64,000 nucleotides of DNA from Geosiphon pyriformis uo1 (Eukaryota; Fungi; Glomeromycota): contig JAAOMT010000134.1 of the NCBI GenBank assembly GCA_016748015.1, forward strand, positions 1,432,757-1,496,756. The letters run 5' to 3'. Below are positions 606 through 29,412 of this stretch, one piece after another; position 1 is the stretch's first letter; each line of letters opens with the position of its first letter. The notes beneath the pieces were generated by a model that saw nothing but the letters and a program-made list of their open reading frames with translations, was not told where the DNA came from and searched no databases. Both the position numbers and the translations under genes were made by a program.

Positions 606-1353
606 TGTTACAGATTAGAGTAATAAGCTAACAGATAGCAAAAAAAAACAGAATTGTAGGATGATAAAAGAAATCAAAGAGAGTTCAACTTCAAAGAGTG
701 AATTGAATAAGTATGGATTTAATGTGCAAGATTAGTTTTATAAAATATCTCAGTTGCTGTACTTTTCAAAAGATAACCAGGAATCTGAAGGTAGAAAGAT
801 AGTCTGTACTGTCAACAAATGATCATGTCTGATATAATTCTATGCCTCACATCAGCACTCTTAGAATTCAATATCAGATATCAGATGTACTCTTCAGTTA
901 CATTTTATTCAATAATTTTCAAATACTGCAATTACACATTTCAGGAAAAGAGTAAAGAATAACTGACAAGTAATCCTTTATTCCAAGATGTTCAGATACT
1001 TGAAGGTAAGGAAAGAGAAATTAGCAATAAGAAAATGATTGAGATGAAAGTTGTTATTTTATTTATTTGATTCTTGATTTTTACATACATTTCTACAGCT
1101 AAGAAATTCATTACTTATATAGTTATCAAAAGTGGTTAATAATTAGGTTAACAACTAGGTCAATGATTAAGTTAATAATCAGGTTAACAGTCAGGTTATT
1201 GATCAGATCAATGATTAAGTCAATGATCAGGTCAATGGTTAAGTCATTGATTAGATTAATAATCACTTTCTAAAAATAGAATGGCTAATTTATATAACAT
1301 CAATGGCTAATACATGTGATAATTAATAAAAAGTATAAGTTTCAACCATAATA
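606..1353 (-). repeat. 3' LTR of A1
   Basis: TGTTACA...CCATAATA termini; adjacent purine tract GGAGAGGATAA on the minus strand at 1354-1364. Confidence 0.9.
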
Positions 1354-2050
1354 TTATCCTCTCCAAAGAGATTGAGCTCTGGCAAAATTAAGTTATTCAT
1401 GATGTAATCTATTTGAAGAGTTTTATCTAACTCAAAGCTAACTAGTTTGTTGAAGTTTTTTGTGGATAGAATATATAATACTTGAGATAAAATGAGTTTT
1501 GTATTCAAGAGACAAAATCTTTGTATTAAAGTTTTGGTTCTTCTAGCATAATTAAAACTCTTGGAACATCTAATCATATAATGCCCAAAATTTCTGCCTG
1601 TATCTCTGAAGTTGTTTTCTTTATGAGTTTCATATTTTCTATGATTTTTCTGAAACAACCATAGAGTTTTAATTGTCTTTTATATGACAAGTTTTTGTCT
1701 ATGGATAAGATTTCTTGGAGTGTTTTTTCAATTGTGCTGAAAGATGGGAGTATAGCTGCTGTTATACTTTCCAACAGATATTTATCTATTTTGCTACCAA
1801 TTTTTTCTTTTTTGGTAGTAGTTTTCTTTGGTCTGATAATGGTATGTGTTCCACTGTTATCAGTTATGGTGATTTGTTTTCCAATAATCAGAGTAGCATT
1901 TGAATAGTTTTTGATCCAATACTCATGGAGAGTATAGAAGACATTTTGAATGTTTTGATCCAGAAAATAATTGTTTATGTTAATTGAAGATATCTCTGTT
2001 TTGGGAATAGTGCATTTATTTATACTTGATTTTGCTGATCATTTAAGTTG
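1323..2050 (-). pseudogene. Family-A ORF4 (uncharacterised ~240-aa ORF between integrase and 3' LTR), frameshifted
   Basis: ORFs 1323-1658 and 1574-1774 are homologous to 16405-16926, 22627-22830 and 22834-23127. Confidence 0.75.
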
Positions 2051-3331
2051 GTATTACCACAACAGACAACCAATCAGGTCGTTTATGATATTTCTTGAGT
2101 CATGTATCATGAACAGAATGATCATTGAAGATTGTTCCAGATTGATCTTGAAGAATATAAGAACCATTGTTCAAAACTTTGTTGATTATAAAGGGTCTTT
2201 TCCACTGGCTAGAGAATTTATTACCATAAACATTGTTTCTATCTGAACAGTATTTCAATACCAAGTCACTAACACTTAAAGAAAGTGTTTTATAAGTTTT
2301 TTTTCTTTTAAGCTTTTTTGGAACTGTTTTATTTTTTTAAAAGCAATTATTTATGCTTCTACCAAGAAGTCAAGAATAGTATCAAGTCTTCTTTACAAAA
2401 TGCCTTTGTAATTTTTTATTGTGATCTTTTCAAAGGGTATTGTCTCAATATCAGTTTCTATTGATAGTGTTGCCATACATCCATAGAACAGATAAAAAAG
2501 TTCATAACTTGTTATGTTATAATTTACAGTTCTATAAGCAAACAAAGTTGAAAGCAGTACTTTGTCTCATAAGTTTGTTTTTTTACTGGTTTTGGCTAGG
2601 ATTTCACATAATATTCTATTGAAATGTTTCACTAGGCCATTTGTTTGAAGGTGATAAAGGGAGAAAAGTTTATAACATATTCCCATTTTTCTACAAAGTT
2701 CTTCAACCAGTGTACTAAGAAACATTCTTCTTCTATCAGATAAAAGTTCTTTGGGGCAGTCATAATAGCAGATAATATTTTCATAAATGAAATTGGCTAT
2801 TGAGACTGCTGTTTGATCTGGAGTGGTTTTTGCTTCTACCCACTTTGTAAGATAGTCAGTAGCTGTGATAATGTATCTGTTGTCATCAGAAGTTATTATT
2901 AAAAGTCTAACAACATCTATACCAATTCTGTCAAATGATTGACCAATAAAGATTGGATAAATATATTCTCTGTGATTGGATTTGCCTTTTTTTTGGCAAA
3001 TGTTGCAAGTTTTAATGTATTCAGCAATGTCTTTTCCCAAGGTAGACAAATAATAATGAGCTAAGATTTTCTGAATTGTTTTTGTTTTTCTAAAGTGTTC
3101 AGCTAATGGGTCAGTATGTATGTTGTATATTACAATTTTTCTTATTTCAAATTTAATGACTCTCTGAGAGCAGTCAAGATCTTTTTTATTTCTTTTATAT
3201 AGCTGGTTCTGGCGAATTAAATAGAAATTTAATTATTTGCACAAATGTTCTCTTTGCTGTCAAGTGTATTCTGGTGGGTATTGTCCTTTACCCAAAAATT
3301 TCATTAAGGCAGAGTAGTTGTCCAAGTCCAT
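2020..3331 (-). pseudogene. A1 integrase (separate ORF, ATG at 3331)
   Basis: H-x-DPLA-x-H...CNICQ zinc motif; IGIDVV, TDYLTKWVEA, LLSD, YHLQTNGLV core; GPF motif near 2195. Confidence 0.85.
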
Positions 3332-3395
3332 TATTGTGTTTGTTTATAAAAGAGTTACTAATAATTAGGTTGGTTTGGTTTGAGAGATTGTAATA

Positions 3396-6085
3396 TTACT
3401 GAATAATAAGTCTAAAAAGAGTGTCAGTATTTTGATGATTTGCTTCTTTGCAGTATTGAATATTATAATCAAATTTATTCAAGTGGAGTATCCAGCAAGT
3501 TATTTGTTTGTATTCCAGCTTCATTTTATTGTGCAGCCAAATCAAGACTTGATGATCTGTTACTACTAGGAATTTTGCACCAAGAAGATATTAATTCCAG
3601 TAACTAGTAGCTTAAACTACTACTAAACATTTTTGTTCAATAACTAAATAGTTCTTTTCTGCTGGTGTAAGGGATCTACTGGCATAAGCTATGGCATATT
3701 CTCTGCCATTTTCATCTTTCTGTGAAAGAACAACACCAAGTCTATAACCAAATGCATCAGTGTGGAAGATGAAAGATTGGTCCAAATTAGATTGCTTGAG
3801 AATTGGTTCAATAATAAGTTTTTTCTTTAGAATTTCAAAAGCTTTTTGTTGATGAGTGTCCCAGTAATAATTGACATTTTTTCTGAGTAGCTGATTGAGA
3901 AGAAAGACAATTTTGGAGAAATTCTTAATAAATTTGCAATAGTAAGAGGCCAAACCAAGAAAAAAGCATAGTTCAGGAATATTTATTGGTTGTTTGATGT
4001 TCTAAACTTTTTCAACTTTAGCTGGGTCAGAGAAGATTCCATTTTTTGTAATAAAATACCAAGGAACTAGGTGGATTGGCATTCAAAGAAAGATTTGATT
4101 GGGTTAATCTTGAGGCCAGCATTTCTGAGCAGGTCAAAAATCTTTTGCAAATGTTCAAGATGTTTATTCCAGGTTTTTGAGTAAACCATTATATCATCTA
4201 AGTAGACCAAAACAAAGTTTTTTTTTACTGATTCAAATACTTTGTCTATTAGATGTTGAAAGATGAGAGAGACATTAGTAAGACCAAAAGACATAACTGT
4301 GAATTTATAGGTGTTATACTTGATAATAAAGGCAGTTTTTTTTCTGCTTTCTGAATCTATCTCTACTTGCCAGAATTCAGCAGTTAAGTCAATAGTTGAG
4401 AAGAAAACAGCACCATTGAATTTATCTAGCATTGTATCAATTTTAGGAAGTGGGTACATGTCTCTTATAGTGATAGTATTTAGTTGTCAATAGTCAACAC
4501 AGAAGTGTAGGGTTTCACCTTTCTTGAATACCACTACAACTGGGAAAGCCCATTTACTCTTGGTTTTTTGTATGAATCCAAGATTTTTTATCTGGTTTAT
4601 TTTTTTCTTAAAAAACTTATTATTGTGTCAATTAGATTGATAAGGCTTTAAATAGATGGGACAAGTTTCTTTTGTGATGATGGTGTGTTGTATCACATGG
4701 ATTTGTCTAGAAGTATTATCTTCTTTTGAGATAACTGGACTATTCTAGCCAACAGATTTTCAATGTTCACTTTTTTTTTTCAGGGGAAGGTTCTCTTTGT
4801 TCTACAACTAGTGATTAGATTTCAGGTGATTCACTTTCAAAAAACTTCTGTACTTCTTTTAGTTCTTCTCTGGGTATCAAATTAATTGGCTTCCAATCCT
4901 TGTAATAGATTAGACAAAACTTGCATTTGTTATTAGGGAAATACAAAGGTTTATCACACTAGCACCTGGCACAAGGACCATGTTACCAATAACTGTATTT
5001 TGCTTTCTTGCCAGGTTTTTTATTAAAGGTTCTTCTAAGAATATTATAGTAGGGCCAGCAGATCAGCTTGTCATTTATTATAATTCTTTTTTTGTCAGCT
5101 TTAACATTGTCCAATGGCTTGCCGTTGCTGGTGAAGATAATATAGGCAAGTTCAGCAGTTTTTTTTTGTTTTTTTTGATCTTCTTTTTCATTACTCTTAT
5201 CATTATCTGATTCATCTGATTGTTCTTTTTTTTGGTTCTGTTTGGCTACTAGAGGGGTTGTCCAATGATAACACTTAATCACAATGGATTTTTCACTACA
5301 TCTAATGGTCAGTTTACAAAGTTTATAATCAAGCAAGGCTTTTGTCTTCTTAAACCATTCATTGCTAACTATTATGATGTATTCTTTTGCTTCAGATACT
5401 TCCATGTTAGTTTTAATGCTGATGCCATTAATTCGAACAGGAACAGTTTTGACTATGCCCAGACCTTTTTTCTTGTCACTATGTATGTTAGTCATTGGTC
5501 TGTAGATAGTTCATCAATTTTTCTGTCAATTGCTTCTAAAAAATGTTTGGCAATAACGCTAACAGATAATCTACTGTTCAGGATTAGATCAATGAAGTAA
5601 CCAGCCACTTGGGCTTTACAAATGAAAGGAGTAACATTGCTGTTGTTAGCAAGTCCAGCTTGGTGTGGGCACTTGTTGGTTTTTAGTGTCTTTTTCTTAG
5701 GAATCAAAGATTTGTAAAGATCTTTTCTGAATTGGAGATGAGTTATTAACTGGCCAAAGGTAATATGTACAGGAGTTTCCATGAGATCTTTGACAATGGA
5801 ATAAAGACCAGATTTTTGCACTATTTCTGGGGGTTTCAACTTTGAAGGATTCTTGAAAACTTTGGCTTTTGGTGGTTCATTGTTATTAGCTGTTAATATG
5901 GAAGCTTTATTGGGATCCAGTATGAAATTAACCTTGGCTTTCTTCTTCTTTTTGGTTGATTCTGAGGTGTTGATTGCCAGTTTGTCCATGTTATGATCAT
6001 TATTAGTTAAGTTAAAAGCAAAAAAAGGGTTTTCTTCTGGTTGGCTTGTACTCTCACCCTTTGGAGGTGCACCTACCAGTTTAAA
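3396..6085 (-). pseudogene. A1 protease-RT-RNase H
   Basis: DLIL(D/N)S protease, YPLPKID, FWQV, YLDD, FHTDA..GLGVVL, IAYASRSL; TAA at 3396-3398. Confidence 0.9.
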
Positions 6086-7624
6086 GGCTGATAAACTGTG
6101 GCTTCCACTAGGGGATTCTCTCCAAAAAAATTGATGTTGGCATGATTAGGTCTTTGATTAGGAGCATTATTGTTGATAGATCTGTTGTTTTAATTGTCAT
6201 TATTTCTGAAAACTGGAGGGGACAATAAAAGATTGTTGCAATCTCTTGAGAAGTGTCCAGTTAATCCACAATGATAGCACACAGATGGGCTACAATTTTG
6301 CTGTCTTTGATATGGTGGTTGTTGAGACTAATTGAAACAGGTTTCAAATCTGGGTCTTTGGGGTTGTTAATTCTCTCTAACTGCTTGGGCCAATGGTTCT
6401 AATAGCCAGGCAAGATTAGCTGTAAGTCTATCTATTAACTGTTTATTTGGGTCTTGAGTTTGGGCAGTAAAAGAGATAGCAGTTATTTGGGGAGCAGAAG
6501 CCAAAATAAGAGCAGAAGCGAAGACTGAAAGTGTGGATCCCAAATGCATTCTTTGGTTATCTTCAATCCTTTGAGCTAATTCAATGGCCATATCTATTGT
6601 GAGATTGTCTTTGAAGGCCAAAAGAGACCAGAGAGCATATGATAGATCAGTTCTCAATTCTTTTGTGAAGGAGTGAATCTTTTGCTCTTCTGTCTAGTTT
6701 CTCCCAAAATCTACACATTTGATTAGCTTTCTGATAGCTTTGGCATATTCAGTCACTACTTCTCCAGAGTCTTGGGTTCTTTTTTCCAGTTCCATGTGCC
6801 ATTTGGATATTAATATTGGGGTTCTGAATTTTGTTTCAAACCAGATAGTGAAAAAGATGTTGTCTTCTCCAGCATTTGCTGGTGCCCATCTAATAATTTT
6901 TTGTTGAGCATTGGCATTGGTTTTTTGTAAGAACCAAGTAGCAGAAGAGCCTTGGAGGTAGCCACCAACAATTTAAAACTTGTATTTGTTATCATATTGG
7001 TTTGCTGTGACAGCTCTTTCAAAATCATCCAGCCATTCAATTGGATCTTAGACATCACCTCTGAATAATGGTAATAGAGTGTTGTTTCTTCACCCTAAAG
7101 CAGTCTGTATACCTTGGAGAGCGATCAAAATGTTTTGTTGCAGAGGGTTTTGAGCCATTGGTTCAGGTGTAACTGTTTGTGTAGTGTTCTGATTTATTTG
7201 AAAAGAGATCAAAAACAGGAGCAGTTTGATAGCTTTCTTTTTCTGTTTTAAGAGGAGTTTCAGTTGATTAATAAGCAGCAATCCAGATATAGATTTGATG
7301 ATTCAGATATTCAAAATCAGGGGGCTGTTGTTCAAAGATTGTGGAGTATAAAAGTTGATTGATGCTGTTATTTCTTTCTTCAAAGTTGTCTTCAAAATAA
7401 GCTTGATCAAAGTAATAAGTTGTATAGGCTGTGTAGGTTTCAGCTGAATGCTTATTCAGGAACCAGTTCCAAAAATCTTGGAATTGTCTATTGTATTGAT
7501 CTTCAATGAGAAAGCAAATCAAACAGGAAGGCAAAGGATTGAGTTCAATAAAGTCTAGATTGTTTTTGTTGTGTGCTTCAAAGTGTTCTTCTAATTGTTG
7601 TGACAGGTATGAATAATCACTCAT
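6073..7624 (-). pseudogene. A1 gag
   Basis: Starts just after the PBS; retrotransposon gag-like QDSGEVVTEY motif and a CCHC knuckle (CYHCGLTGHFSRDC) near 6235-6280. Confidence 0.85.
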
Positions 7625-7652
7625 ACAATAGGAAACAGAGTGAATTTTGACA

Positions 7653-7670
7653 ACCTCACAGAGAGCACCA
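7653..7670 (-). promoter_or_regulatory. Primer-binding site TGGTGCTCTCTGTGAGGT (probably elongator tRNA-Met)
   Basis: Begins TGG 6 nt inside the 5' LTR; the same site occurs at 28702-28719, 50647-50664 and, degenerate, 60171-60188. Confidence 0.8.
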
Positions 7671-7676
7671 CTTTTA

Positions 7677-8390
7677 TGTTATGGGTTGGAATAACAAGCT
7701 AATGGATAGCAAGAGAGAACAGAATTGTAGAGTGATGAAAGAAATCAAAAAGAATTCAACTTCAAAGAGCAAATTAAATAAGTATGGATTCAATGTGCGA
7801 GATTAGTCTCATAAAATATCTCAGTTGTTATACTTTTCAAAAATAACTGGAGAATCTGAAGGTAGAGGAATAGTCCGTACTGTCAACAAATGATCACACT
7901 TGGTATAATTCTATGTCTTACATCAGTACTCTTAAAATTTAATATCAAGTATTAGATGTGCTCTTTAATTATATTTTATTCAATAATCTCCAAATGTTGC
8001 AATTACACGTTTTAAGAAAAGGCAGGTAAACACCAACAAGTAATTTTTTATCCAAAAAATGTTCAAATACTTGAAAATAAGGAAAGGAAATTTAGCAATA
8101 AGAGAATGATTGAGATGAAAGTTGTTATTTTATTTATTTAATTTCTTGATTTTTGATATGCTTTTTTACATGTCAATGATCAGGTCAATGGTCAAGTCAA
8201 TAATCAGGTCAATAATCAGGTCAATGATCAGGTCATTGATCAGGTCAATGATCAAGTTAATAATCAGGTGAATGGTCAGGTCATTAATTAGGTCAATGAT
8301 CACTTTCTAAAAATAGAGTGGCTAATTTATATGACATTAGTAGCTAATACATATGATAATTAATAAGAAGTATAAGTTTCAACTGTAACA
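7677..8390 (-). repeat. 5' LTR of A1 (TATA segment deleted)
   Basis: TGTTATGG...CTGTAACA; 12-bp array at 8172-8300. Confidence 0.9.
8172..8300. repeat. 12-bp tandem array (CAGGTCAATGAT)n in family-A U3
   Basis: Also at ~1133-1265, 15348-15420, 22282-22317, 29253-29325 and 50020-50100, with variable copy number. Confidence 0.9.
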
Positions 8391-10501: not shown

Positions 10502-12045
10502 AGTACAATGAATACTAGTCCAATCAGATGAGATTCCACAAGATCTAAAACTAATTATAATCATTAATTCAAACATGTCAAATTGATTGACCAAAAGAGT
10601 ATATAAAAACATAGTATACATGACAAAAGAACCAAAGAAAATGGAAATACCAGATCATATTTACACCTTAGCTCAACAATTATTTCAGGCTTTAAATCAA
10701 CAACAATTGGACATGAAAATTACCATTAACCACCAAAAAATTTGCTATTGAAATACCAAACAAAAAAAAAGTACACCATATTAGTGACTATAGAACCAAA
10801 CAAGAAACTGGTCAAATAAAATAATAGAAAAAGTGAAACCCACTTTTGGGAAAATACTCATTATAGTTCTAACAGAAAAACTTTTAAAAAAAAATTGGAA
10901 ACAGTGATTAAAACAACTTCCAATACCATATTGTTACTATCAGTTGAGACAAAAGTTGAATATTCAGAAGTTATATCTCGATAAAGCCAAAAGAATATTC
11001 AACTAAGAGATAATACAGAATATTGAAGACATTATTGGAAAGAAAACAAATTTGACATTACACATTAGAACAATCTATCAATTACACACAATATTTCAAA
11101 ACTATCTGGAAATATTGTTATATCTTAACATAGAAACAATAACCTTTAATCAATGGGAAAGAATGAACAACTTACAAATCAAAGTTATAAGAACCAGAAT
11201 TAAATAAACAGTATTAGAAAAAAAAATTATGGACCTAATTCAAAATGAAAATTTTGATGAAGCTTAATATTAAAAAAAGAAGATAATGTTACTCATAGAA
11301 AAAACATACAAAAAAAATAGTAAAAAAAACAGATAGATTAATAGAAGAATAGTAACTAACACATGAGCATATTGCTTGAGAAAGTATAATACATTGCTCA
11401 AAAATGTGAGCAATCTTATAGAACTCAAATTATATATATATAGTAAGAGCATTAAAAGCAGAAAAAACAGAATTCCTAATTAAAACCAATACTATAATCT
11501 TCTAGTTACAACCTTTTAGTTAGAATTATCAATATTAATAAATAATTATTTATCATTTAAATTATCTTCTCTACTATCAACATAAAATATTGATAGTATT
11601 TACTACTTGATCATATTAGAACAATAGTTTTTGAATATGGCTATTAATGAGATACTAACATAAATTGCCTTGGCTTAAATTTTTTTATTTTTTTTATTTT
11701 TTTTATTTTTATTTTATTGTTGTATACTAATTGATTAAGAATTAAATGTTAATTTACTGATGTCAAGAATTGCTTGGTAAAAGACCTCAAGTAAGAAGAT
11801 AAAACATTGAAAATTAAGGATTACTTACCAAAAGATTGCTGGCCACCAAGCCAAGAAAAAAATTGATGGAATTGTGATTCCAAGAGGCTACTAAAAACAA
11901 TATTTGAATCTCTATCTATTATATAAAAAACTTAACCAAAACCTTTAGATACTAAAATCTTTAGATAATACTCATCATATTAGTTATTAAATACCAAGTT
12001 ACAAGTTGTTATTTGATTTAAGACCCCAAATAATCATCTGTAACA
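10502..12045 (+). mobile_element. Family-B 3' end: integrase tail, ORF4 remnant, PPT and 3' LTR (type D, 11287-12045)
   Basis: Reverse-complement colinear with 17123-18680; LTR TGTTACTCAT...CTGTAACA. Confidence 0.85.
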
Positions 12046-14819: not shown

Positions 14820-15732
14820 TGTTACAGTTTGAAGTAACAAGCTAACAGATAGCAAGAGAGAACAGGATTGTAGGGTGATAGAAATAATCAAAAGAAATTC
14901 AACTTTAAAAAGCAAATTGAATAAGTATGGATTCAATGTGCGAGATCAGTCTCATAAAATATCTCAGTTGCTATTCTTTTCAAAAGGTAACAAGAGAATC
15001 TGAAGATAGAGGGATAGTCCGTACTGTCAACAATTGATAACTGCTGGTATAATTCTATGCCTCACATTGGTGCTTTTAGAATTTAATATCAGGTATCAAC
15101 TTGTGCTTTTCAATCACATTTATTCAAATAATCTTCAAATGCTACACTTATATGTTTTAGAAAAAAGGTAGGTAAATGCCAACAAGTAATCTTTTATCCC
15201 AAGATGTTCAGATACTTAAAGGTAGGGAAAAAAAAATTAGCAATAAGAAAATAATTGAGATGAAAGTTGTTATTTTATTTATTCTTAATTATTTTGAACA
15301 TATTTTCTATAGCTAAGAGATTCATCACTTATATAGCTGTCAAAAGTGGTTAATAATTAGGTTAATAACTAGGTCAATGATCAGGTCAATAGTCAGGTTA
15401 TTGATCAGGTCAATGATCACTATCTAAAAATAGTGTAACTAATTTATATGACATTAGTAACTAATACATATGATAATTAATAAGAAATATAAGTTTCAAC
15501 TATAACATCATTCTTTTTAAAGAGATTAAGCTCTGGCAAAATCAAGCTATTTATGAGGTAATTTATTTGAAAAGTTTTATTTAACTCAAAGCTAACTAGT
15601 TTGTTGAAGTCTTTTGTGGATAAAATATATAATACTTAAAGCAAAATGATTTTTGTATCCAAGAGACCAAATCTTTGTATTAGAGTTTTAGCTCTTTTAG
15701 CAATAGTTAAAACTCTTAGGACATTTAACCAT

Positions 15733-16425
15733 TGTTACAGGATGGTTTTCTTGTTATATTTAATTGCTGATATCCCGCTTTAATTGCAATCAGTCTTTCA
15801 TGAGTTCCTCAATTCTATTTGTGTGATAATGTTACTGTTACACTGAAGGCTTTCTTTTTACTGTTGCGATGTAAGTTATTCTTTAATTCTTGATTGTTGT
15901 GTGTGTTTATGTACTCCTTCTCAGAGGCTGAACTGAAATCTACCCACTGTTTGGGGTCTTCTCTGAGGCTATCCTTGCAATTGCCTGATGTGTTTCTCTA
16001 ATCTAGAAACACAGAATGTTAATGGTCTTTAGCACTTTTCTAATTCTCACAATAAAGCTTTTATCAATTAGTAACAACGTGAATAATCTTGATCAAGGAT
16101 TATTCTTCCAAGAGATTCAGTTGATGAATGATAGTTTCATTCAATNNNNNNNNNNNNNNNNNNNNNCCAATATTAAAACTACTGTATATATACATGTTTG
16201 TAGTTCTACGAGAAAATACTTTCTTTTTGATATTTCAACCTGGTGCTTGCTGCTATCACCAGTTGGTGTTGGCTGCTATTGTGAACTGGTGCTTGCCACT
16301 ATCGCGAGATGGTGTTTGCTACTATGTTAATCATTACCTTTCTAAGATTATTACTGTGCTATATTATGATTGAATAGTTTGTATTATTTTTATGATTCTT
16401 TTTGCTAAATTCTTAAACCATAACA
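15733..16425 (-). repeat. Apparent solo LTR of family C, TSD CCAT
   Basis: TGTTACAGG...CCATAACA flanked by CCAT/CCAT; homologous to 52912-53752; spans an N gap. Confidence 0.85.
16146..16166. other. Assembly gap (21 N)
   Basis: Run of n in the sequence. Confidence 1.
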
Positions 16426-17122
16426 CCATATAATGCCCAAAATTTTTGCTTGTATTTCTAAAGTTGTTTTCTTTATGAGTTTCATATCCTCTATGATTTC
16501 ATTAAGGCAACCATAGAGTTCTAATTGCCTTCCATATGACAAGTTTTTGTCTATGGGTAAGATTTTTTGGAGTGTTTTTCCAATTGTGTTAAAAGGTGAA
16601 AGTATAGCTGCTATTATACTTTTCAACAGATATTTATCCATTTTACTAACAATTTTTTCTCTTTTAGTAGTAGTTTTTTTTGGCCTAATAACAGTATGTA
16701 TTCTACTGTTATCAGTTATAGTAATTTGTTTTCCAATGGTTAGAGTAGCATTTGGATAGTTTTTAATCCAATACTCATAGAGAGTATAGAAGGCATTTTG
16801 AATGTTTTGATCCAGAAAATAATTGTTTATGTTAATTGAAGATATCTCTGTTTTAGGAATGATGCATTTATTTATACTTGATTTTTGCTGATCATTTGAG
16901 TCGGTATTACCACAACAGGCAGCCAATCAGATTGTTTATGATATTTTTTGAGTCATGTACCATGAATAAGATGATCATTGAAGATTGTTCTGGATTGATC
17001 TTGAAGAATATAAGAACCATTGTTCAAAACTTTGTTGACTATAAAGGGTCCTTTTCATCAGCTAGAGAATTTATTACTATAGACATTGTTTTTGTCTGAA
17101 CAATATTCCAATACCAAGTCAC

Positions 17123-17887
17123 TGTTACAGGTGATTATTTGGGGTCTCAAATCAAATAACAAATCCATAATTTGGTGCTCAATTGATATATAATGTGATT
17201 GGTAATATCTGAAGATATTGTTATCTGAAGGTTTTGGTTGAGTTTTTTGTATAATGAACAGAGATTCAATTGTAATAGTTTTATCTATAGCTTCCCAAAA
17301 TCACAGTTTTGTCAATTTCTTTTTCAGCTTGATGGCTGGTATTCCTCCTGGTAAGCTATCTTCAATCAAGTGTCCTACTCTTATTCTTAGGTCTTTTATC
17401 AGTGCTATATCCTGATGTCAGTACCCTACGTGTTAATCCTCAATAGAGTTAGTAATAATAACAAAATCAAAAATAAAATAAAAGAAAAATAAAATAAAGA
17501 AATAAGCCAAGGCAATATGCAAGTTAGTATTCGTCAATAGCCATGATCAAGAACTATTGTTCCAGTGTGGTTAAGTATCAATTGCTATCAACATGAAGTG
17601 TTGATAGTGAAGAGTGGATTTGGATGGTAAATAATTTATTTATTCAATAGTTGGGAATGAGAAATTTCTAACTAAAAGATTCTGCTTTTTCTATTTCTAA
17701 TGCTACCACTATATATACATAATTGATGTTCTACAAAATTGCTCACATTTCTGAGCAATGTGCTATAATTTCTTAAGCAATGTATCATGATTTCTGATAT
17801 TGCTCCACATTGCTGAGCAATGTGCTCACGTGCTAAATACTATTTTCTTATTGGTCTGCTATATTTGTTTTCTTTTTATGAGTAACA
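17123..17887 (-). repeat. 3' LTR type D
   Basis: TGTTACAGG...GAGTAACA; minus-strand purine tract AAAAAGAGGAAATAA adjacent; reverse complement of 59261-60168. Confidence 0.9.
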
Positions 17888-20005
17888 TTATTTCCTCTTT
17901 TTAATATTGAGCTTTGTCGAAATCTTCGTTTTGAATTAATTTTAATACTTTTTTTTCAAGTATTGTTTGTTCAATTCTGTTCTTCATGTCTTCTACTTGT
18001 GTATTGTTCATTCTTTCTTATTGGTTAATGGTTATGGTTTCCATGTCAAAGTATAATAGTATTTCTGGATAATTCTGAAATATGTTGTGTAGTTGATAAA
18101 TTGTTTTCACATGTAGTATTGAGTTTGTCTTTTTTCCAATGAATTTTTCAATTTGCTGTATTATGTTTTGGTTGAATACTCTCTTGGATTTGTCGATATA
18201 CAACTTCTGAATATTCAACTTTTGACCTAGCTGATAGTAACAGTATAATATTGGAAGTTGTTCTGTCCATTGTTTCCAATTCTCTTTTGTAAGTTTTTCT
18301 GTTGGTGCTATAATAGATATTTTCCCAAAAGTGTTTTTTACTTTTTCTATTATGTTGTCTGACCAGTTTTTATTATTCCTTAGTAACTGCTAATATGGTG
18401 TATTCTTTGTCTTTCTTTTGGTGTTTCAATAGCAAATTGTTTGGTTGTTAACAATAACTTCTATGTCTAAAGATTGTTGACTTAAAGCCTGGAATAATTG
18501 TTGAGCTATGACATAAATATGATCTGATATTTCTATTTTTTTTGGTTGCTTTTGTCACATATACTGTGTCTTTATATATTTTTTTATTGTTTGATTTTTT
18601 ACATGTTTGGTCTAATAATTATGATTGGTTCCAGATCTTGTGGAATCTCATCTGGTTGAACTAGTATTTATTGTATTCCTAATTGTAGAATATTATTGGT
18701 AGATGGTCACACTGTATGGTGATATGGTTTCAGTTGATCACTATGTGCTGCTTTGGCTAAGATTTTGTTGTCCCATCTTAATTTATAAGCTCCATTTCCA
18801 AGAATTTCTTCAATGTAAAATGGTCCATCCCATTTGGGGTCAAATTTCTCACTCCATTGTTTTTCCACTTTAGTATGATGTAGAAGTATTTTGTCTCCAA
18901 TCTTGAATTCAACTGGTTTGTCTGGTAGTTGATTATTGTGTCTCTCTTTTTGTTTTTCTTGTGACTTTTGAATGTTATCAGCTGCTCTTTATCACTTGTT
19001 TTCTAGAGTTTCTATCAAGTTATATGTTCTTCTTAGTAACATTTCCTGAAAATTGTCTTCAGTTATTAATTCTGTTGGATAAGTGTTGACTTCTATCTCA
19101 ACTAGTAATGTTGCTGTTCTACCATATACTAATTCAAATAATGTTGCTTGTGTAGTGTCTTGTTTTATTGTCCAATAAGCAAATAGTACTGACAGTATAA
19201 ACAAATCCCATTCATTCTGATTTTCTTGACTGATCTTGGTGATTGCTTCACACAATGTTTTGTTAAATCTTTTGACTAGTCCATTTGTTTATGGATAATA
19301 TGGTAACGATAATGGTCTTTTTATCTCAAATCTTTGACTTAATTTTGTTAATGTTCTGTTCACAAAGTGAGTTCTTTGATCTGATAATAGTTCTTTTGGA
19401 CATCCATGTCAACAAATCAAATCTTGATGAACAAATTTGGCAACGGATTCTGCATCTGCTTTTTGAATGGCTTTTGCTTCTGGTCATTTAGTGAGATAAT
19501 CCATAGCTACTGCAATATATCTGTTGCCTCTACTGGTAATTGTTAATGATCCAACTAAGTCAATTCCTATGTGATCGAATAGTTGTCCCACTTTAATTGG
19601 TCTTAATGATTCACTTGGTCTTGTTTCTCCTCTTCTTTGATAAACATTTTAATTTTGAACATATTGGATGATATCTCGATACATTGATGGCCAATAATAT
19701 CTTTTTCTGGTTCTTTTTATGGTCGTTTCTTTATGAAAATGTCCTGCTGTTAGATCTGAGTACATATTGAATAATACTGTCTCTTTTTCTGGTTCTGTGA
19801 TTACTCTAATTGATTGATCTGGATTTTTTCTGTTCTTCTGGTAGAGTGTATTTTGATGATTAATAAAATATTTTAATTGTTGTTTTATGTTGTTTTGTTC
19901 CTTTTGAGATAATTTTTCCTTGAATAATTGATTATTTATATAATACTGAAGTTGTTGGTATTTTTGTATGTTTATCTTTTGTTATATTTTTGGGTTAAAA
20001 TGTTT

Positions 20006-21754: not shown

Positions 21755-24700
21755 TATTACAGGTTGGAGTAACAAGCTAATAGATAGCAAGGGAAAACAG
21801 GATTGTAGAGTGATAGAAATAATCAAAGAGAATTCAACTTCAATGAGTAAATTGAATGAGTATGGATTTAATGTGTGAGATCAGTTTCATAAAATATCTC
21901 AATCACTATTCTTTTCAAAAGGTAACAAGAGAATCTGAAGGTAGAGGGATAGTCTGTACTGTCAACAATTGATAACTGCTGGTATAATTCTATGTCTCAT
22001 GTCAGTGCTCTTAGAATTCAATATCAAATATCAACTTGTGCTCTTCAGTCACGTTTATTCAAATAATTTTCAAATACTGTAATTACACGTTTCAGGAAAG
22101 TGCCAACAAGTAATCTTTTATCCAAAAGATGTTCAGATACTTAAAGATAGGAAAAGGGAAATTAGCGATAAGAGAATGTTTGAGATAGAAGTTTGTTATT
22201 TTATTTCTTTGATTGTCTTGATTCCTTATATTGATATTTTTCTACAGCTAAGAGACTCATCATTTATATATCTATTGAAAGTGGTCAATGACCAGATCAA
22301 TGATCAGATCAATGATTACTATTTAAAAATAGGGTGGCTAATTATATGACATCAGTGGCTAATACATGTGATAACTAATAAAAACTATGAATTTCAACTG
22401 TAACATTATCCTCTCCAAAGAGATTGAGCTTCAGCAAAATCAAACTATTTAGGGGATACTCTATTTGAAGAATTTTATCTAACTCAAAACTAACTAATTT
22501 GTTGAAGTCTTTTGTGGATAAGGTATATAAAACTTAAGGCAAAATGAGCTTTGTGTTCAAGAAACCAAATCTTTGTATAAAAGTTTTGACTCTTCTTGCA
22601 ATGGTCAAAACTCTTAGAACATCTAATCATACAATGTCCAAAATTTCCACTTGTATTTCAGAAGTTGTTTTCTTCATGAGCTTTATGTCTTCTATGATTT
22701 TACCAAGGTGCCCATAGAGTTTTAATTGTCTTTTATATGACAAGTTTTTGTCTATAGACAAGATTTCTTTAATTGTTTTTCCAATTGTGATGGAAGGTGC
22801 AAGTATTGCTGCTGTTATACTTTCTAGCAAATACTAATCCATTTTGCTACCAATTCTTTCTCTTTTGGTAGTTGTTTTCTTTGGTTTGATAACAGTATGT
22901 ATTCCATTGTTGTCAGTTATTGTAGTTTGTTTTTCAATGGTCAGAGTAGCATTTGGATAGTTTTTAATCCAATATTCATAAATAGTATAGAAAGTGTTTT
23001 GAATGTTTTGATCCAGAAAATAATTGTTTATGTCAATTGAAGATACCTCTGTTTTGGGAGTGATGCATTTATTTATATCTGATTTTTGCTGATCATTTGG
23101 GTCAGTATTATCACAACAGATAACCAATCAGATTGTTTGTAATATTTCTTAAGTCACATGCCATGAACAGGACGATCATTAAAGATTGTTCCAGATTGAT
23201 CTTGAAGAATATAAGAACCATTGTTCAGAACTTTTTTGACTATAAAGGGTTCTTTCCATCAGCTAGAGAATTTATTACCATAGACATTGTCTTTGTCTGA
23301 ACAGTATTCCAAAACCAAGTTACCAATACTTAAGAAAAGTGTTTTATAGGTTTTCTTTTTCTTAAGCTTCTCTTGGAACTGTTTTATCTTTTCAAAGACA
23401 ATTATCCGTGCCTCTACCAATGAGTCAAGAATAGTACCAAGTTTTTTTTGCAAAATGTCTTTGTAATTCCCTATTGTGATTTCTTCAAAGAGTATTGTTT
23501 CAATATCAGTTTCTATTGGTAGTATTGCTATTTGTCCATAGAGCAGGTAAAAGAGTTCATAACTTGTTATGTCATGATTCACAGTTCTATAAGCAAACAA
23601 AGCTAAAGACAGTACTTTGTCTCATAAATTTGTTTTTTCACTTGTTTTGGCTAAGGTTTCATACAGTGTTCTATTGAAATGTTCCACTAGGCCATTTGTT
23701 TGGGGATGATAAGGGGAGAAAAGTTTGTGACGTATTCCTATTTTTCTACAAAGTTCTTCAACCAGTGTACTAAGAAAAGCTTTTTCTCTATCAGATAAAA
23801 GTTTTTTGAAGCAGCCATAATGACAAATGATATCTTCATAAATGAAATTAACAATGGAAACTGCTGTTTGATCTGGGGTGGCTCTTGCTTCTATCCACTT
23901 TGTAAGATAATTAGTAGCTGTGATAATATATTTGTTGCCATCAGAAGTTACTGTTAATGGTTCAACAACATCTGTACCAATTCTGTTAAAGGGTTGGCCA
24001 ATAAAAATTGGATAGATGTTTTCTTTGCGATTGAGTTTTTCTCTTTTTTGGCAGGTATTACAGGTTTTGATGTACTCAGCAATGTCTTTTCCCAAAGTAG
24101 GCCAATAATAGTAAGGTAAAGTTTTCTGAATTGTTTTTGTTTTTTTAAAGTGTCCAGCTAATGGATCAGTGTGCATGTTGTAGATCACAATTTCTCTTTT
24201 TTCAAATCTTATGACTCTCTGGAAGCAGTTAGAATTTTTTCTATTTCTTTTATATAATTGGTTCTGGCAGATCAAATAAAAATTTGATTGTTTGTGCAAA
24301 TGTTCTCTTTGCTGTCAAGTGTATTCTGGTGAGTATTGTTCTTTACCCAAAAATTCCATTAAGACAGAGTAGTTGTCCAAGTCTATTATCATGTTTGGTT
24401 GTAAGAAAATTACTAATAATTAGGTTGGTTTGGTTTGGGAGGTTGTACTGTTACTTGGTGGTAAGTCTGGAGAGAGCATCAGCATTTTGATGATTAGCTT
24501 CTTTATGGTGTTGAATATTATAGTTGAATTCATCCAAGTGGAGTATCTAGCGGGCTATTTGTTTATGTTCTAGCTTTTTCTTGTTACACAGCCAAACCAA
24601 AGCTTGGTGATCTGTTACTACCAAAAACTTCACACCAAGAAGATACTTATCCCAGTAGCTGGTAGCCCAAACTACTGCTAAGCATTCCTGCTCAGTAACT

Positions 24701-27700
24701 GAATAGTTTTTTTCTGCTGGTGTAAGGGTTCTACTGGTATAGGCTATTGCATGTTTTCTGCCATCTTCATCTTTTGTATGAGAACAGCACCAAGTCTATA
24801 GCCAGATGTATCAGTATAAAGGATGAAAGGTTGATCTAGATTAGGTTGCTTGAGAATAGATTTTGTAACCAATTTTTCTTTGAGGATTTCAAATGTTTTC
24901 TGCTGATATGTGCTTCAATGATAGTTGACATTTTTCCTGAGTAGCTAATTGAGTGGAGAGACAATTTTAGAGAAATCCTTAACAAATTTGCAATAATAGG
25001 AGGCCAAACCAAGAAAAAAACATAACTCATGAACATTCATTGGTTGTCTTATGTTTTGAACTTTTTCCACTTTGGCTGGATCAGAGAAGATTCCATCTTT
25101 TGTAATAAGATGGCCAAGAAATTGGGTGGATTGTCTTCCAAAGAAAAATTTGATTGGGTTGATTTTGAGACCTGCATTTCTGAGAAGATTAAAAACCTTT
25201 TGCAAATGTTTAAGGTGTTCATTCCAGGTTTTTGAGTACACTATTATATCATCCAGATAGACCAGAACAAAGTTTTTTTTCACTGATTCAAATACTTTAT
25301 CCATTAAGCATTGAAAGATGGGAGAGGCATTGGTAAGACCAAAAAACATGACTGTGAATTCATAGGTGCCATACTTGGTAATGAAGGCGGTTTTTTTCCA
25401 GCTTTCTGGATCCATCTTTACTTGCCAGAATCCAGCAGTTAGATCAATGATTGAAAAGAAAGCAGCATCTTTGAATTGATTCAGCATTGTATCAATCTTG
25501 AGAAGTGGGTACATGTCTCTTTCAGTAATGGCATTTAATTGGCGGTAATTAACACAAAAGCATAGGGTTCCACCTTTCTTGAATACCATTACAACTGGGA
25601 AAGCCCATTCACTCTTGGTTTCTTGTATAAATCCAAGTTCTTTTATCTGGTTTATTTCTTTCTTGATAAACTCATTATTTCGGCAATTGGATTGGTAAGG
25701 CTTCAAATGGATGGGACGAGTTTCTCTGGTGGTGATGATGTATTGTATCACATGGGTTCGTCCTGGAATATCACCTTCTTTTAAGATAACTAAGCTGTTT
25801 CTTGTCAACAGATTTTCAATGTCTATCTTTCTTTCTTCTGGGGAGGGTTCTCTTTGTTTTACTACTAATGATTGGATCTCAGGTGGTTCATTCTCAAAGA
25901 ACTTCTGTACTTCTTTTAATTCATCTCTTGGTATTAGGCTAATTGGTTCCCAATCTTTGTAATAGATCAGGCATGATTTGCATTTATCACTTGGAGAATA
26001 CAAAGGTTTATTGCACCAGCACCAGACACAAGGGCCATGCCACCAATAACTGTATTTGGCTTTCTTGCCAGGCTTTTGGTCAAAGGTTCTTCTTAGAATA
26101 TCATAGTAGGGCCAGCAGATCAGCTTACTATTTACAATGATTCCCTTTCTATCAGCTTTAACATTGTCTAGTGGCTTGCCATTGCTGATAAAGGTGGTGT
26201 AGGTGAGTTCAACAGTTTCTTTTTGTTCTTCTTGTTCATCTTCTTCATTACTCTCTTCATCATCTGATTCCTTTGATTGCTCATCTTCATGATTTTGTTT
26301 GATTGCTAAAAGAGTTGTCCAATGGTGACATTTAACCACAATGGGTTTTTTATCACATCTTATAGTTAGCTCACAAAGTTTATAGTCGAGTAAGACTTTT
26401 GCTTTCTTAAGCCACTCATTGCCAACAATAATAGTGTATTCTTTAGCTTTAGAAACTTTCATGTTAGTTTCAATACTGATGCCATTGATGCAAACAGGAA
26501 TAGCTTTGGCAATGCCCAGATCTTTCTTCTTGTCACCATGTACGTTAGTCATTGGTCAGGTGGAAGGTTCATTAATTTTTCTGCCAATTGCTTCAAGGAA
26601 GTGTTTGGCAATTACACTAACAGATGATTCACTGTCTAGGATCAAGTCAATAAAGTAACCAGTCACTTGTGCTTTGCAAATTAGAGGAGTGATATTGCTG
26701 TTGTCAGCAAATCCAGCTTGGCGATGGCATTTATTGGTCTTTGGTGTTTTCTTCTTGGGGATTAGAAATTTGCGGAGATCTTTTCTGAACTGTAAATGGG
26801 TCATTAATTGACCAAAGGTAATGTGTGCTGAGGTTTCCATGAGATCTTTGACAACAGAATAGGGTTCAGATTTTTGTACAATTTCTGGGAGTTCCAACTT
26901 TGGAGAGTTCTTAAAAACTTTGGCTTTTGGTGGCTCATTGTTATCAGCAGTGGAAGTTGAGGCTTTGTTAAGATCTAGAACGAAATCAACCTTGACTTTT
27001 TTCTTTTTTCTGGTTGATTCAGAAGTGTTGATTGCTAATTCATCCATGTCATGGTCATTATCAGTTAAGTTAAAAGCAAAAAAGGGGTTTTCTTCTAGTT
27101 GGCTTGCACTCTCACCCTTTGGAGGTGCACCTACCAGTTTAAAGGCTGATAGACTGTGGCTTCAACTAGAGAATTCTTTCCAAAGAAATTGATGTTGGCA
27201 TGGTTGGGTCTTTGATTGGGAGCATTATTGTTAATGGGTCTATTGTTTTGATTGTCATTATTTCTGGAGACTGGAGGAGGTAAAGGAGAATTGTTGCAAT
27301 CTTTTGAGAAATGTCCAGTTAATCCACATCTATAACATACAAGAGAACCACAATTTTGCTGTCTTTGATAAGAAGATTGCTGGGGCTGATTAAAATGTGG
27401 TTTATATCTGGGTTTTTGTAGTTGTTGGTTATCTCTAACTGCTTGTGCCAAAGGTTCTAATAACTAGACAAGATTGGCTGTGAGTTTATCAATTAATTGT
27501 TCATTTGGATCTTGAGTTTGGGCAGCAAAAGAGGCAGCAGTCATTTGAGGAGCAGGAGCCATGATAGAAGCAAGAGCAAAAACTGGAAGTGTGTATTCTT
27601 TAGTTGTCTTTAATTTGTTGGGCAAGTTCAATGGCCATGTCCATTGTAGAATTGTCTTTTAGGGCCAAGAAAGGCCAAAGAGCATAAGATAAATTGGTTC

Positions 27701-29412
27701 TCAATCCTTTTGTGAAGAAATGAATCTTTTGTTCTTCTGTTCAATTTCTTTCAGAGTTTACATGCTTGATTAACTTTCTGATTGCTTTAGGATATTCAGT
27801 TACAATTTCACCAGGGCCTTGAGTTTTTCTTTCTAATTCCATGTGCCACTTGAATATCAAGATTGGGGTTCTGAACTTGTTTTCAAACTGGGTTGTAAAA
27901 GAGGTGTTGTTTTCTCCAGCATTTGCTGGCATCCATCTAATGATTCTTTGATGAGCATTAGCATCAGTTTTCTGTGAAAACCAGGTAGCAAGAGAGCCTT
28001 GAAGGTAGCCACCAACAATTTAAAACTTGTATTTATCATCGTATTGGTTAACTGTAGCAGCTCTTTCAAAGTCATCCAACCATTCAATTAGATCTTGTGC
28101 ATTGCCTTTGAATAATAGTAGTGGAGTGTTGTTTCTTCATCCCAAAGCAGTTTGTATGTCTTGGAGAGCAGCCAAGATGTTTGCTTGTATTGGATCTTGG
28201 ACCATTGGTTTAGGAGTTACTGTTTGTGTGAAGTGCTCCAATTCACTTAAGAAGAGATCAAAAATAGAGGCTGTTTGGTAGCTTTCTTTTTCTGTTTCAA
28301 GAGGAGTTACTGTTGATTAATAAGCAGCAATCCAAATGTGGATTTGATGATTCAGATTTTCGAAATCAGGGGGCTGTTGTTCAAAGTTTGTAGAATATAA
28401 GAGCTGATTGATACTGTTGTTTTTTTTTTCAAAGTTGTCTTCAAAATAAGTTTGATCAAAGTAATAAGTTGTATAAGTCGTGTAGGTTTCAGCTGAATGC
28501 TCATTCAGAAACCAGTTCCAAAAATTTTGGAATTGTCTGCTGAATTGTTTTTCAATGGGGAAGCAAATCAAGCAGGAGGGCAAAGGATTGAGTTCAATAA
28601 AATCTAAATCATTTTTGTTGTGTGCTTTAAAATGTTCTTCTGATTGTTGTGACAGGTATGAATAATCACCTATACAATAGAAAACAAGGTGGATTTTGAC
28701 AACCTCACAGGGAGCACCACTTTTATGTTATGGGTTGGAGTAACAAGCTAACAGATAACAAGAGAGAACAGGATTGTAGAGTAATAGAAATAATCAAAGG
28801 GGATTCAACTTCAATGAGCAAATTGAATGAATATGAATTCAATGTACAAGATCAGTCTTATAAAATATCTCAGTTGCTATTCTTTTCAAAAAATAACAAG
28901 GGAATCTGAAGGTAGAAGGATAGTCTATACTGTCAACAATTAATAACTGCTGGTATAATTCTATGCCTTATGTCAGTGCTCTTAGAATTCAATATCAGAT
29001 ATTAACTTGTGCTCTTTAGTCACATTTATTTAAATAATCTTCAAATACTGCAATTACACGTTTCAGAAAAGTGTCAACAAGTAATCTTTTATCCAAAAGA
29101 TGCTCAGATACTTGAAGGTAGGAAAAGAGAAATTAGCAATAAGAGAATGTTTGAGATAGAAGTTTGTTATTTTATTTCTTTGATTGTCTTGATTTCTTAC
29201 ATTGATATTTTTCTACAGCTAAAAGACTCATCATTTATATATCTATTGAAAGTGGTAAATGACCAGATCAATGATCAGGTTAATGATCAGGTCAACAGTC
29301 AAATCATTGATCAGATCAATGATCACTATTTAAAAATAGAGTGGCTAATTATATGACATTAGTGGCTAATATATGTGATAACTAATAAAAACTATGAGTT
29401 TTAATTATAACA
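21755..29412 (-). mobile_element. Family-A copy A3, complete insertion, TSD GTGG/GTAG
   Basis: LTRs 21755-22405 and 28726-29412; PBS 28702-28719; gag 27131-28673; PR-RT-RH 24451-27143 (535-aa ORF with YLDD); IN 23073-24386; ORF4 22375-23100; the host B frame rejoins across it (..TISI|PPYDQY). Confidence 0.95.

What the first reader, a model, noticed from the sequence alone, without database searches (positions are those of the whole stretch)
16405..16926. Uncharacterised ORF4 in the env position, with homologues in all three LTR families
Seen: a sense ORF of about 220-245 aa lies between the integrase stop and the 3' LTR. It occurs in A (1323-2050, 15478-16926, 22375-23100) and B (10580-11272, 17900-18590, 33650-34284), and as a tail in C (53765-54030). 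B and C align clearly: IQQIEKFIGK / IQQLESFIGK, and RAIYWLYMRFQNQPEILL / KAVYRIFKAFENCHKVLL. A shows a weaker parallel (RAKTLIQRF..IIL..LSTKDFNKL). No signal peptide or long transmembrane stretch is evident, so it is not Env-like, and it is not a chromodomain. Inference: an ancient, retained soluble helical accessory protein, possibly a transactivator of the U3 arrays, a targeting factor or an anti-silencing factor.
Basis: partly seen in the sequence, partly recalled or inferred. Interest (0 to 1): 0.8.

Follow-up and report, generated by a model that had tools for sequence, protein, structure and literature searches.

The report
Ancient fourth gene in fungal retrotransposons
Several distantly related Gypsy-type jumping genes, most likely of the soil fungus Geosiphon, carry the same unnamed, non-envelope protein gene at their tail end, behind a TATA-like box; it likely makes a DNA-binding regulator that would switch the element on, but this is untested and every copy in this window is broken.

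Summary
Real gene, dead copies, function inferred. The given interval (16405-16926, - strand) holds only the first 134 codons of family-A ORF4, cut by a solo family-C LTR (15733-16425, CCAT duplication); the rest lies at 15480-15728. Intact database copies show a 218-aa protein. At least ten ORF4 lineages exist: A, B1, B2, C, D, D2, E in Geosiphon pyriformis and three from metagenomes; one of these (L001) is intact, in the same slot. B1, B2, C and D are clearly homologous (23-43% identity); A is linked only weakly (end-to-end, z up to 6). No signal peptide, membrane helix or Pfam family. AlphaFold (pLDDT 81) gives a mostly helical protein; a basic linker and a basic helix after a GKTN turn recur across lineages. 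Helix-turn-helix likeness (ParB/KorB, DUF3102) is only a faint lead. A TATA box lies 41-46 nt before the start in 6 of 6 window copies that keep the start; LTRs carry family-specific arrays just before their own TATA. Best guess (0.4): an internally promoted DNA-binding activator, working like foamy-virus Tas. Extra ORFs in this slot are a known kind, and the scan noted similar cases on other DNA; I found no description of this family.

The parts
16429..16830 (-). ORF4 of family-A copy A2, codons 1-134 (the finding proper); start codon reads ATA
   Evidence: 81% identical to intact 218-aa P0036 residues 1-134
15480..15728 (-). ORF4 of copy A2, codons 136-218; the last nine codons lie inside the 3' LTR
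   Evidence: 73% identical to P0036 136-218; LTR start at 15507
15733..16425 (-). Solo family-C LTR (with a 21-N gap) inserted into A2 ORF4, 4-bp duplication CCAT
   Evidence: matches 52909-53752 at 72-80%; TG...CA ends and CCAT flanks
16869..16876 (-). TATAAATA, 46 nt before the ORF4 start; putative internal promoter; overlaps the integrase stop codon
   Evidence: same spacing in A1 and A3
14820..15507 (-). 3' LTR of A2 with 12-bp U3 array (15348-15419) directly before a TATA box
1326..1978 (-). ORF4 of copy A1 (one stop, one frameshift near 1540); TATA at 2017-2024
22378..23031 (-). ORF4 of copy A3, full length in one frame, 3 stops; TATA at 23070-23077
10641..11272 (+). ORF4 of family-B1 copy B1a (7 stops); TATA 41 nt before the start
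17904..18536 (-). ORF4 of family-B1 copy B1b (3 stops); TATA 42 nt before the start; stops just before the purine tract
   Evidence: 74% identical to intact P0210
33640..34227 (-). ORF4 of family B2 (1 stop, 3' end cut off by other sequence); TATA 41 nt before the start
53766..54060 (-). 3' part of family-C ORF4 (from residue 126, frameshifted), joined by a deletion to the RNase H end
   Evidence: 63-80% identical to P0266 126-219
17123..17887 (-). 3' LTR of B1b with ~20/40-bp U3 repeats before a TATA box
52912..53752 (-). 3' LTR of family C with 23-bp U3 array (53538-53662) before a TATA run
606..8390 (-). Full-length family-A element A1: LTRs 606-1351 and 7677-8390 (80% identical), gag, PR-RT-RH, separate integrase, ORF4
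21757..29412 (-). Full-length family-A element A3, LTRs 87% identical

Best explanation
ORF4 is a real, conserved accessory gene of a Ty3/Gypsy lineage, most likely of Geosiphon pyriformis and related organisms, which likely is transcribed from its own internal TATA promoter and likely makes a soluble DNA-binding regulator that would act on the repeat arrays in the element's LTR. Shown: position between integrase and 3' LTR; 209-239 aa, no membrane or signal segment; at least ten lineages at about 20-43% identity; an intact copy in the same slot in metagenome locus L001; TATA box at -41 to -46 in six window copies; arrays directly before the LTR TATA box. Predicted: N-terminal helix plus beta-hairpin, basic linker, helical core (80-200). 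Inferred: short mRNA from the internal TATA to the 3' LTR; nuclear entry through the basic linker; DNA contact by the basic helix after the GKTN turn; activation of the LTR promoter, as foamy-virus Tas does. All window copies are dead.
For: Homology B1/B2/C/D global z 7.6-30.6, 0 of 300 shuffles; metagenome lineage H z 4.0-8.6 to seven others. A: 20 proteins score median 13.75 bits on a non-A profile without the tail, 0 of 1000 shuffles reach that; A vs G z 6.1; hhalign end to end, 203 columns, P 0.015. 20 of 65 family-A gene models that begin at the conserved start are exactly 218 aa. L001: RT-RH, integrase, intact 230-aa ORF4, purine tract, TGTTAC. 28 of 359 gene models carry an integrase piece N-terminal of ORF4, in A, B2, C, D, D2, E. 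dN/dS 0.30-0.53 (0.44-0.76 with transition weight 4) for A pairs, like integrase 0.34 (0.50); B1 vs B2 identity by codon position 0.53-0.59/0.71/0.43-0.47; third-position excess p 0.003 (A), 0.011 (B1). TATAWAWR at -46 in 3 of 3 A copies, -41/-42 in 3 of 3 B copies; only 6 other such loci in 18.4 kb of internal sense strand. Model pLDDT 81, pTM 0.65. Helix 143-160 net +2 to +4 in 11 of 11 rows; linker 39-53 net +3 to +6 in 9 of 11. Faint leads in the expected register: KorB 1r71 Z 3.2 rmsd 4.7 90 aligned, Spo0J 1vz0 Z 3.1 rmsd 5.2 95 aligned, ParB 6s6h Z 3.2, Raf1 6kkn Z 3.8; DUF1016_N E 0.037; DUF3102 0.89 and HTH_3 0.87. Foamy-virus logic from PMC7390438 passages.
Against: No DNA binding, expression or localisation is shown. 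The helix-turn-helix leads are at noise level: Z 3.1-3.8 among 50 tied rows; hhalign to ParB, DUF3102, DUF1016_N not significant (25 of 40, 3 of 40, 3 of 60 shuffles as high), though the positive controls were also weak. The Atlas ranks two RNA binders (closterovirus coat 0.93, RegA 0.91) above DUF3102. U3 array units are not enriched near the internal TATA. In A the TATA box overlaps the integrase stop codon, and in L001 the only TATAWAWR is at -126. A and B count as about two independent cases only. Within-family selection is modest: the A1/A2 interval reaches 0.95-1.28, the C-terminal part of A2 shows none (p 0.72), C-tail intervals include 1, and a non-coding LTR control gave a synonymous share of 0.43 in one frame. 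A vs B2, C and H is not significant (z 0.3-1.5) and three earlier profile tests of A failed.
Confidence: 0.4

Rival explanations
1. ORF4 is an RNA-binding accessory protein that exports, protects or packages the element's RNA, like CERV of Cer1 or Rev; in the extreme form it derives from a filamentous RNA-virus coat protein.
For: Basic helix and linker fit RNA as well as DNA. ESM Atlas top hits for H: closterovirus coat 0.92-0.93 and RegA translation repressor 0.90-0.91. These elements have a separate integrase ORF, so RNA processing may need help. CERV precedent (PMC10309623 abstract).
Against: Atlas hits share only 132-140 of 256 features (under the 170 typical of true family members) and come from one divergent member; no Closter_coat Pfam match in 53 members. 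Does not explain the arrays before the LTR TATA.
Confidence: 0.2
2. ORF4 is a sequence-specific anti-silencing factor that binds the element's repeats and shields them from DNA methylation, like VANC proteins of VANDAL transposons (recalled, no call).
For: Window CpG observed/expected 0.14, L001 0.21: strong methylation pressure. Fast divergence of ORF4 (22-40%) against integrase (35-78%) in the same elements and family-specific arrays fit an arms race.
Against: No enzyme or chromatin-reader motif; arrays sit in the enhancer position before the TATA box rather than across the element. Cannot be told from activation by sequence alone.
Confidence: 0.15
3. ORF4 is an integrase cofactor or targeting/nuclear-import factor that replaces the missing chromodomain.
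For: Integrases end after the GPF/Y region with no chromodomain; ORF4 lies next to integrase; heavy nesting into other elements.
Against: It is a separate ORF behind its own TATA-like box, in varying frames relative to integrase; no reader domain.
Confidence: 0.12
4. ORF4 is an Env-like protein.
For: Position in the env slot only.
Against: No hydrophobic N-terminus or 19-residue membrane segment in 10 of 10 proteins, 0-3 cysteines; soluble helical model.
Confidence: 0.02
5. The ORF is a chance frame or functionless relic kept by DNA-level constraint.
For: The last ~15 residues are DNA-driven: a CTCAAT motif and purine tract before the LTR are read in different frames in A, B1, C and L001. All window copies are broken.
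Against: Homology over ~200 residues across lineages at 20-43% identity with second-position conservation, intact copies, a confident fold from co-variation.
Confidence: 0.02

Closest known systems
Sense additional ORFs between pol and 3' LTR (aORF-3S) of LTR retrotransposons; 'add. ORF' of fungal Gypsy elements
   Same: Same slot and sense, in most copies of a family, unknown function (PMC7264820 parts 1-2 of 3; PMC2864245 passages).
   Different: No membrane segment; shared across at least ten lineages; TATA-like box of its own; in A, D and two metagenome lineages it runs over the purine tract into the LTR.
Foamy-virus Tas (Bel-1) with its internal promoter
   Same: Works-like model: 3' accessory gene under an internal promoter, binds DNA, activates the LTR; Pol also expressed apart from Gag (PMC7390438 passages).
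   Different: No sequence relation found (no such Pfam match); no env; binding and activation untested here.
Maize Grande gene23; Oikopleura Tor env
   Same: Accessory ORF near the 3' end with its own promoter (Grande: nuclear protein, PMC7264820; Tor: abstract of PMC4402516).
   Different: Grande gene23 is antisense; Tor Env is a membrane glycoprotein.
CERV of C. elegans Cer1
   Same: Non-Env, element-specific nuclear accessory protein (abstract of PMC10309623).
   Different: Made from a spliced mRNA and acts in RNA export; no similarity tested positive here.
ParB/KorB-type helix-turn-helix domains (HTH_ParB, DUF3102, DUF1016_N)
   Same: Helix, G-K turn, basic helix; faint structural and profile hints in the same register.
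   Different: None of the hints is significant; extra N-terminal helix-hairpin module and long C-terminal helix.

Membership tests
Ty3/Gypsy LTR retrotransposon (host elements) | LTRs with TG...CA ends, target-site duplication, purine tract, order PR-RT-RH-IN | tested here: met
   4-bp duplications
Sense additional ORF between pol and 3' LTR (aORF-3S) | Sense ORF between integrase and 3' LTR | tested here: met
   7 window copies and L001
Sense additional ORF between pol and 3' LTR (aORF-3S) | Present in most copies and conserved like gag-pol | tested here: met
   359 database gene models; dN/dS like integrase; no whole genome was held, so the share of copies was not counted
Env / env-like | Signal peptide | tested here: not met
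   N-terminal 9-residue hydropathy 0.02-1.68 in 10 proteins; a simple window test, not SignalP
Env / env-like | Transmembrane helix | tested here: not met
   highest 19-residue mean 1.33
Env / env-like | Spliced subgenomic mRNA from the 5' LTR | not testable with these tools
   no reads could be laid
Chromodomain of chromoviruses | Beta-rich chromo domain fused to integrase | tested here: not met
   separate ORF, helical model, no Pfam chromo match
Foamy-virus Tas | Sequence homology | tested here: not met
   no Pfam match to any viral transactivator among 53 members
Foamy-virus Tas | Internal promoter | tested here: inconclusive
   TATA at -41 to -46 in 6 of 6 window copies, -126 in L001; no transcript data
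Foamy-virus Tas | Binds and activates the LTR | not testable with these tools
   needs bench work
ParB/KorB-type HTH (PF17762, PF11300, PF17761) | Profile similarity | tested here: inconclusive
   hhalign not significant, positive controls also weak; DUF1016_N E 0.037 in 1 protein; DUF3102 profile had only 4 sequences
ParB/KorB-type HTH (PF17762, PF11300, PF17761) | Fold similarity | tested here: inconclusive
   Z 3.1-3.8, rmsd 3.1-5.2, 59-95 aligned
Closterovirus coat protein (PF01785) | Profile or fold similarity | tested here: inconclusive
   Atlas 0.92-0.93 with 139-140 shared features; no Pfam match

The most novel reading that the evidence does not exclude
A fungal Ty3/Gypsy clade is organised like a complex retrovirus: it carries its own sequence-specific transcription factor, from a helix-turn-helix-like domain not yet described, made from an internal promoter, each family's factor co-evolving with its own U3 array; this switch would help explain why LTR elements fill about 41% of the Geosiphon genome despite heavy methylation.
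Probability: 0.3. Interest if true: 0.8.

Novelty: new variant of a known kind. Interest (0 to 1): 0.52.

Why it matters
LTR sequences cover 41.2% of the G. pyriformis genome and Geosiphonaceae and Ambisporaceae share LTR bursts (PMC11952901 passages). A conserved accessory gene in these elements is a candidate driver of that success. Most extra ORFs of retrotransposons have no assigned function; here there are intact natural copies from several lineages, each with its own short U3 repeat, so a cognate-versus-non-cognate binding and reporter test is directly possible. If it works like Tas, it would be a convergent complex-retrovirus design in fungi and a set of orthogonal activator/operator pairs. 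Practical side result: hundreds of 'hypothetical proteins' in the Geosiphon annotation are pieces of this transposon gene.

Tried and rejected
Fold searches of the pLDDT-81 model gave no clear match: Foldseek PDB and BFVD none at E <= 0.001, VIA-align best Z 4.5 of 48,161 chains and 4.0; the N-terminal module was barely tested and the core was not folded alone, so this shows neither a new fold nor a different one. First model from family A alone was useless (pLDDT 41). Homodimer job: no answer (score 0.01, alignment not used). No RNA holder was listed for 21757-24400. Pfam, PHROGs, NCBIfam and PDB-sequence scans: nothing near a curated cut-off; Glypican (5 of 53, best E 3e-5) covers the N-terminal helices of one subfamily against a 555-position extracellular model and was set aside; FtsQ E 5e-4 set aside (20 bits against a cut-off of 366). 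No relative in IMG/VR or GenBank phages with P0310. Shared cis-element between U3 arrays and the ORF4 promoter: not supported in A or B1; in L001 a 12-mer shared with the spacer was the top of 20 windows, a single case. The acidic C-terminal tail shared by A, D, F, G was rejected as evidence of protein homology because it is coded by the purine tract and was cut before the test. My recollection that similar helical domains occur in host genes of other Glomeromycota comes from no call and was not confirmed: the one deep profile search was run before the metagenome lineages were known and could not be repeated. The ORF4 tree is too poorly supported, with A and H on long branches, to test co-divergence. 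No whole genome was held, so genome-wide dN/dS was not run. Seven literature searches listed no description of this ORF; the Geosiphon genome paper was not in the listings, and the supplements of PMC2864245 and PMC11952901 (element tables, TE library) were not opened and may bear on novelty.

Full report
Setting. The window is 30% G+C, strongly CpG-depleted (observed/expected 0.14) and consists mostly of nested, decayed Ty3/Gypsy elements plus LINE pieces. All 116 of 116 and 86 of 86 protein hits to two ORF4 queries, and the 120 listed of 340 hits to a third, are Geosiphon pyriformis gene models, so the window most likely comes from that fungus or a close relative (inference). No whole genome was held.

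The observation. The stop-free frame 16408-16926 is a fragment. Against an intact 218-aa database copy, the gene starts at 16830 on the minus strand, runs 134 codons, and continues at 15728-15480. Between lies a solo LTR of family C, 15733-16425, with TG...CA ends and CCAT on both sides. Other copies: A1 1326-1978, A3 22378-23031, B1a from 10641, B1b 17904-18536, B2 33640-34227, and a C tail 53766-54060 that a deletion has joined to the RNase H end. All are broken by stops, frameshifts, insertion or truncation. LTR pairs of A1 and A3 are only 80% and 87% identical: old, dead insertions.

It is a real gene. Of 65 family-A gene models beginning at the conserved start, 20 are exactly 218 aa. Searches brought in further lineages: B1 (P0210), B2 (P0126), C (P0219, P0266), D (P0230), D2 (P0260), E (P0280) and, from a profile search of 1.84 billion representatives (121 hits), three lineages known only from metagenome assemblies: F (P0293), G (P0310, P0366), H (P0365). 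I looked up sources for 10 of the 121: 7 Geosiphon, 3 unnamed metagenome proteins; the rest were classed by similarity. B1, B2, C, D and D2 are homologous end to end (23-43% identity between families, z 7.6-30.6, 0 of 300 shuffles). The locus of G (L001, 3.7 kb) has RT-RH, a stop, integrase, a 316-nt spacer, an intact 230-aa ORF4, a purine tract and TGTTAC: the same architecture in another organism of unknown identity. 28 of 359 gene models have an integrase piece N-terminal of ORF4, covering A, B2, C, D, D2 and E; the context of F and H was not seen, though F ends in the purine-tract-coded tail.

Family A is the weak link. Direct profile tests against B, C and D failed. With F, G and H added, hhalign aligned 203 columns end to end (P 0.015, probability 2.9%), 20 A proteins without their tail scored a median 13.75 bits (range 3.4-18.4, no composition correction) against a shuffled maximum of 12.0 in 1000, and A versus G gave z 6.1, versus D 4.2, but versus B2, C and H only 0.3-1.5. 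A's integrase is also the most distant (35-40%). I judge A a probable divergent member (about 85%).

Selection. Pairwise dN/dS of window copies: A 0.30, 0.35, 0.53 (0.44, 0.51, 0.76 with transitions weighted 4), B1a/B1b 0.31 (0.51), against integrase 0.34 (0.50) and gag 0.14-0.24; intervals for A1/A2 and for the C tail reach or include 1. DNA-guided counts show third-position excess for A3/A1 (p 0.003), the finding's N-part (0.028) and B1 (0.011) but not the A2 C-part (0.72); integrase gave 0.11 and LTR controls 0.13 and 0.84. The signal within families is modest, as expected for dead copies; the deep conservation between families is the stronger proof.

Protein. No signal or membrane segment in 10 of 10 representatives, no Pfam, PHROG or NCBIfam family near a cut-off. 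AlphaFold on G with 53 sequences gave pLDDT 81, pTM 0.65: helix 7-21, beta-hairpin 25-38, low-confidence linker 41-52, helices 54-66, 82-95, 100-119, 126-141, 146-160, short helices, long helix 185-220. The linker is basic in 9 of 11 rows and helix 143-160, after a G-K-T-N turn, in 11 of 11. I had guessed a ParB/DUF3102/DUF1016_N-type helix-turn-helix before testing (notes; from recall). Hints came in the expected register: KorB, ParB, Spo0J and Raf1 among the VIA-align rows at Z 3.1-3.8, DUF1016_N E 0.037, DUF3102 0.89 in the Atlas. None is significant, profile-profile tests were negative with weak positive controls, and the Atlas put closterovirus coat, DUF6192 and RegA higher. The fair reading is a nucleic-acid-binding helical protein, DNA or RNA undecided.

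Expression signals. TATAWAWR lies 46 nt before the ORF4 start in A1, A2, A3 and 41-42 nt before it in B1a, B1b, B2; only six other such loci occur in 18.4 kb of internal sense strand. Caveats: in A the box overlaps the integrase stop, A and B are about two independent cases, L001 has it at -126, and an earlier scan note on another genome (e1-9917451) had mentioned a promoter-like box before I looked. In the LTRs, family-specific arrays (A 12 bp, B1 about 20/40 bp, C 23 bp) lie directly before the LTR TATA box. The array units are not enriched near the internal TATA. In A and G (and by protein ends D and F) ORF4 crosses the purine tract and ends inside U3; in B1 and C it stops just before. A CTCAAT motif 22-24 nt before the LTR is shared as DNA and read in different frames, so the acidic tail is not evidence of protein homology.

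Mechanism. Best supported: an internally promoted nuclear regulator that binds the U3 arrays and activates the LTR, working like foamy-virus Tas, which is made from an internal promoter and binds both LTR and internal promoter despite little sequence relatedness (PMC7390438 passages). Shown are the gene, its conservation, its solubility by sequence, the TATA placement and the arrays; promoter activity, nuclear entry, DNA binding and activation are inferred (0.4). Rivals: RNA export or packaging factor like CERV (PMC10309623 abstract; 0.2), anti-silencing factor (0.15; VANC recalled), integrase cofactor (0.12), Env (0.02), relic (0.02).

Novelty. Extra sense ORFs in this slot are known from plants (PMC7264820, parts 1-2 of 3), fungal Gypsy elements (PMC2864245 passages) and rotifers (PMC5408684 abstract), and internal promoters from Grande gene23 and Tor env. 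The scan itself noted similar extra genes in other genomes, with no sequence look-alike to this one. Seven literature searches listed no description of this protein family; PMC11952901 (passages) reports the LTR expansion in Geosiphon only. Verdict: new variant of a known kind, interest 0.52.

Noticed in passing
window 3331-3410, 19960-20012, 24371-24463, 35648-35745; L001 772-800: Integrase is a separate reading frame after a stop at the end of RNase H in A, B1, B2 and L001 (in frame in L001, out of frame in the window copies); how it is expressed is unexplained.
   Followed up: partly
window 29432-30472 and 55448-56116: dUTPase domains upstream of RT in the C element and probably the B1b element; known from other fungal Gypsy elements (PMC2864245).
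   Followed up: partly
just inside the 3' LTR junctions at 22405, 53752, 17887; L001 3116: CTCAAT motif 22-24 nt before the 3' LTR, conserved as DNA across A, B1, C and L001 and read in different frames: a likely cis-element of plus-strand priming.
   Followed up: partly
window 606, 8390, 15733/16425, 21757/29412: Target-site duplications are 4 bp (CCAT; ATAT/GTAT; GTGG/GTAG), not the 5 bp usual for chromoviruses (recalled).
   Followed up: no
window 7660-7676 and 28709-28725 (- strand): Primer-binding-like sequence starting TGG 6 nt after the 5' LTR of A1 and A3; tRNA not identified.
   Followed up: no
window 8363-10528, 40327-45219: LINE-like pieces (endonuclease match at 42135-42650); one sits beside the A1 5' LTR.
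   Followed up: no
window 36001-38000: Only CpG-rich stretch (50 CpG in 2 kb against 0-17 elsewhere) with a 151-codon frame at 37168-37620 without Pfam match, next to a 12% G+C stretch: possibly a host gene or young insertion.
   Followed up: no
window 14572-14819 and 31743-32009: A further repeat with 38-47-bp tandem units, probably another LTR family.
   Followed up: no
database proteins P0002-P0365: Hundreds of Geosiphon 'hypothetical proteins' are pieces or gene-caller chimeras of ORF4, integrase and LTR arrays (for example IIDL runs from the 12-bp array).
   Followed up: partly
L001 2148-2160 region and 3148-3160: A 12-mer shared between the spacer before ORF4 and U3 in L001, the top of 20 windows; single case.
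   Followed up: partly
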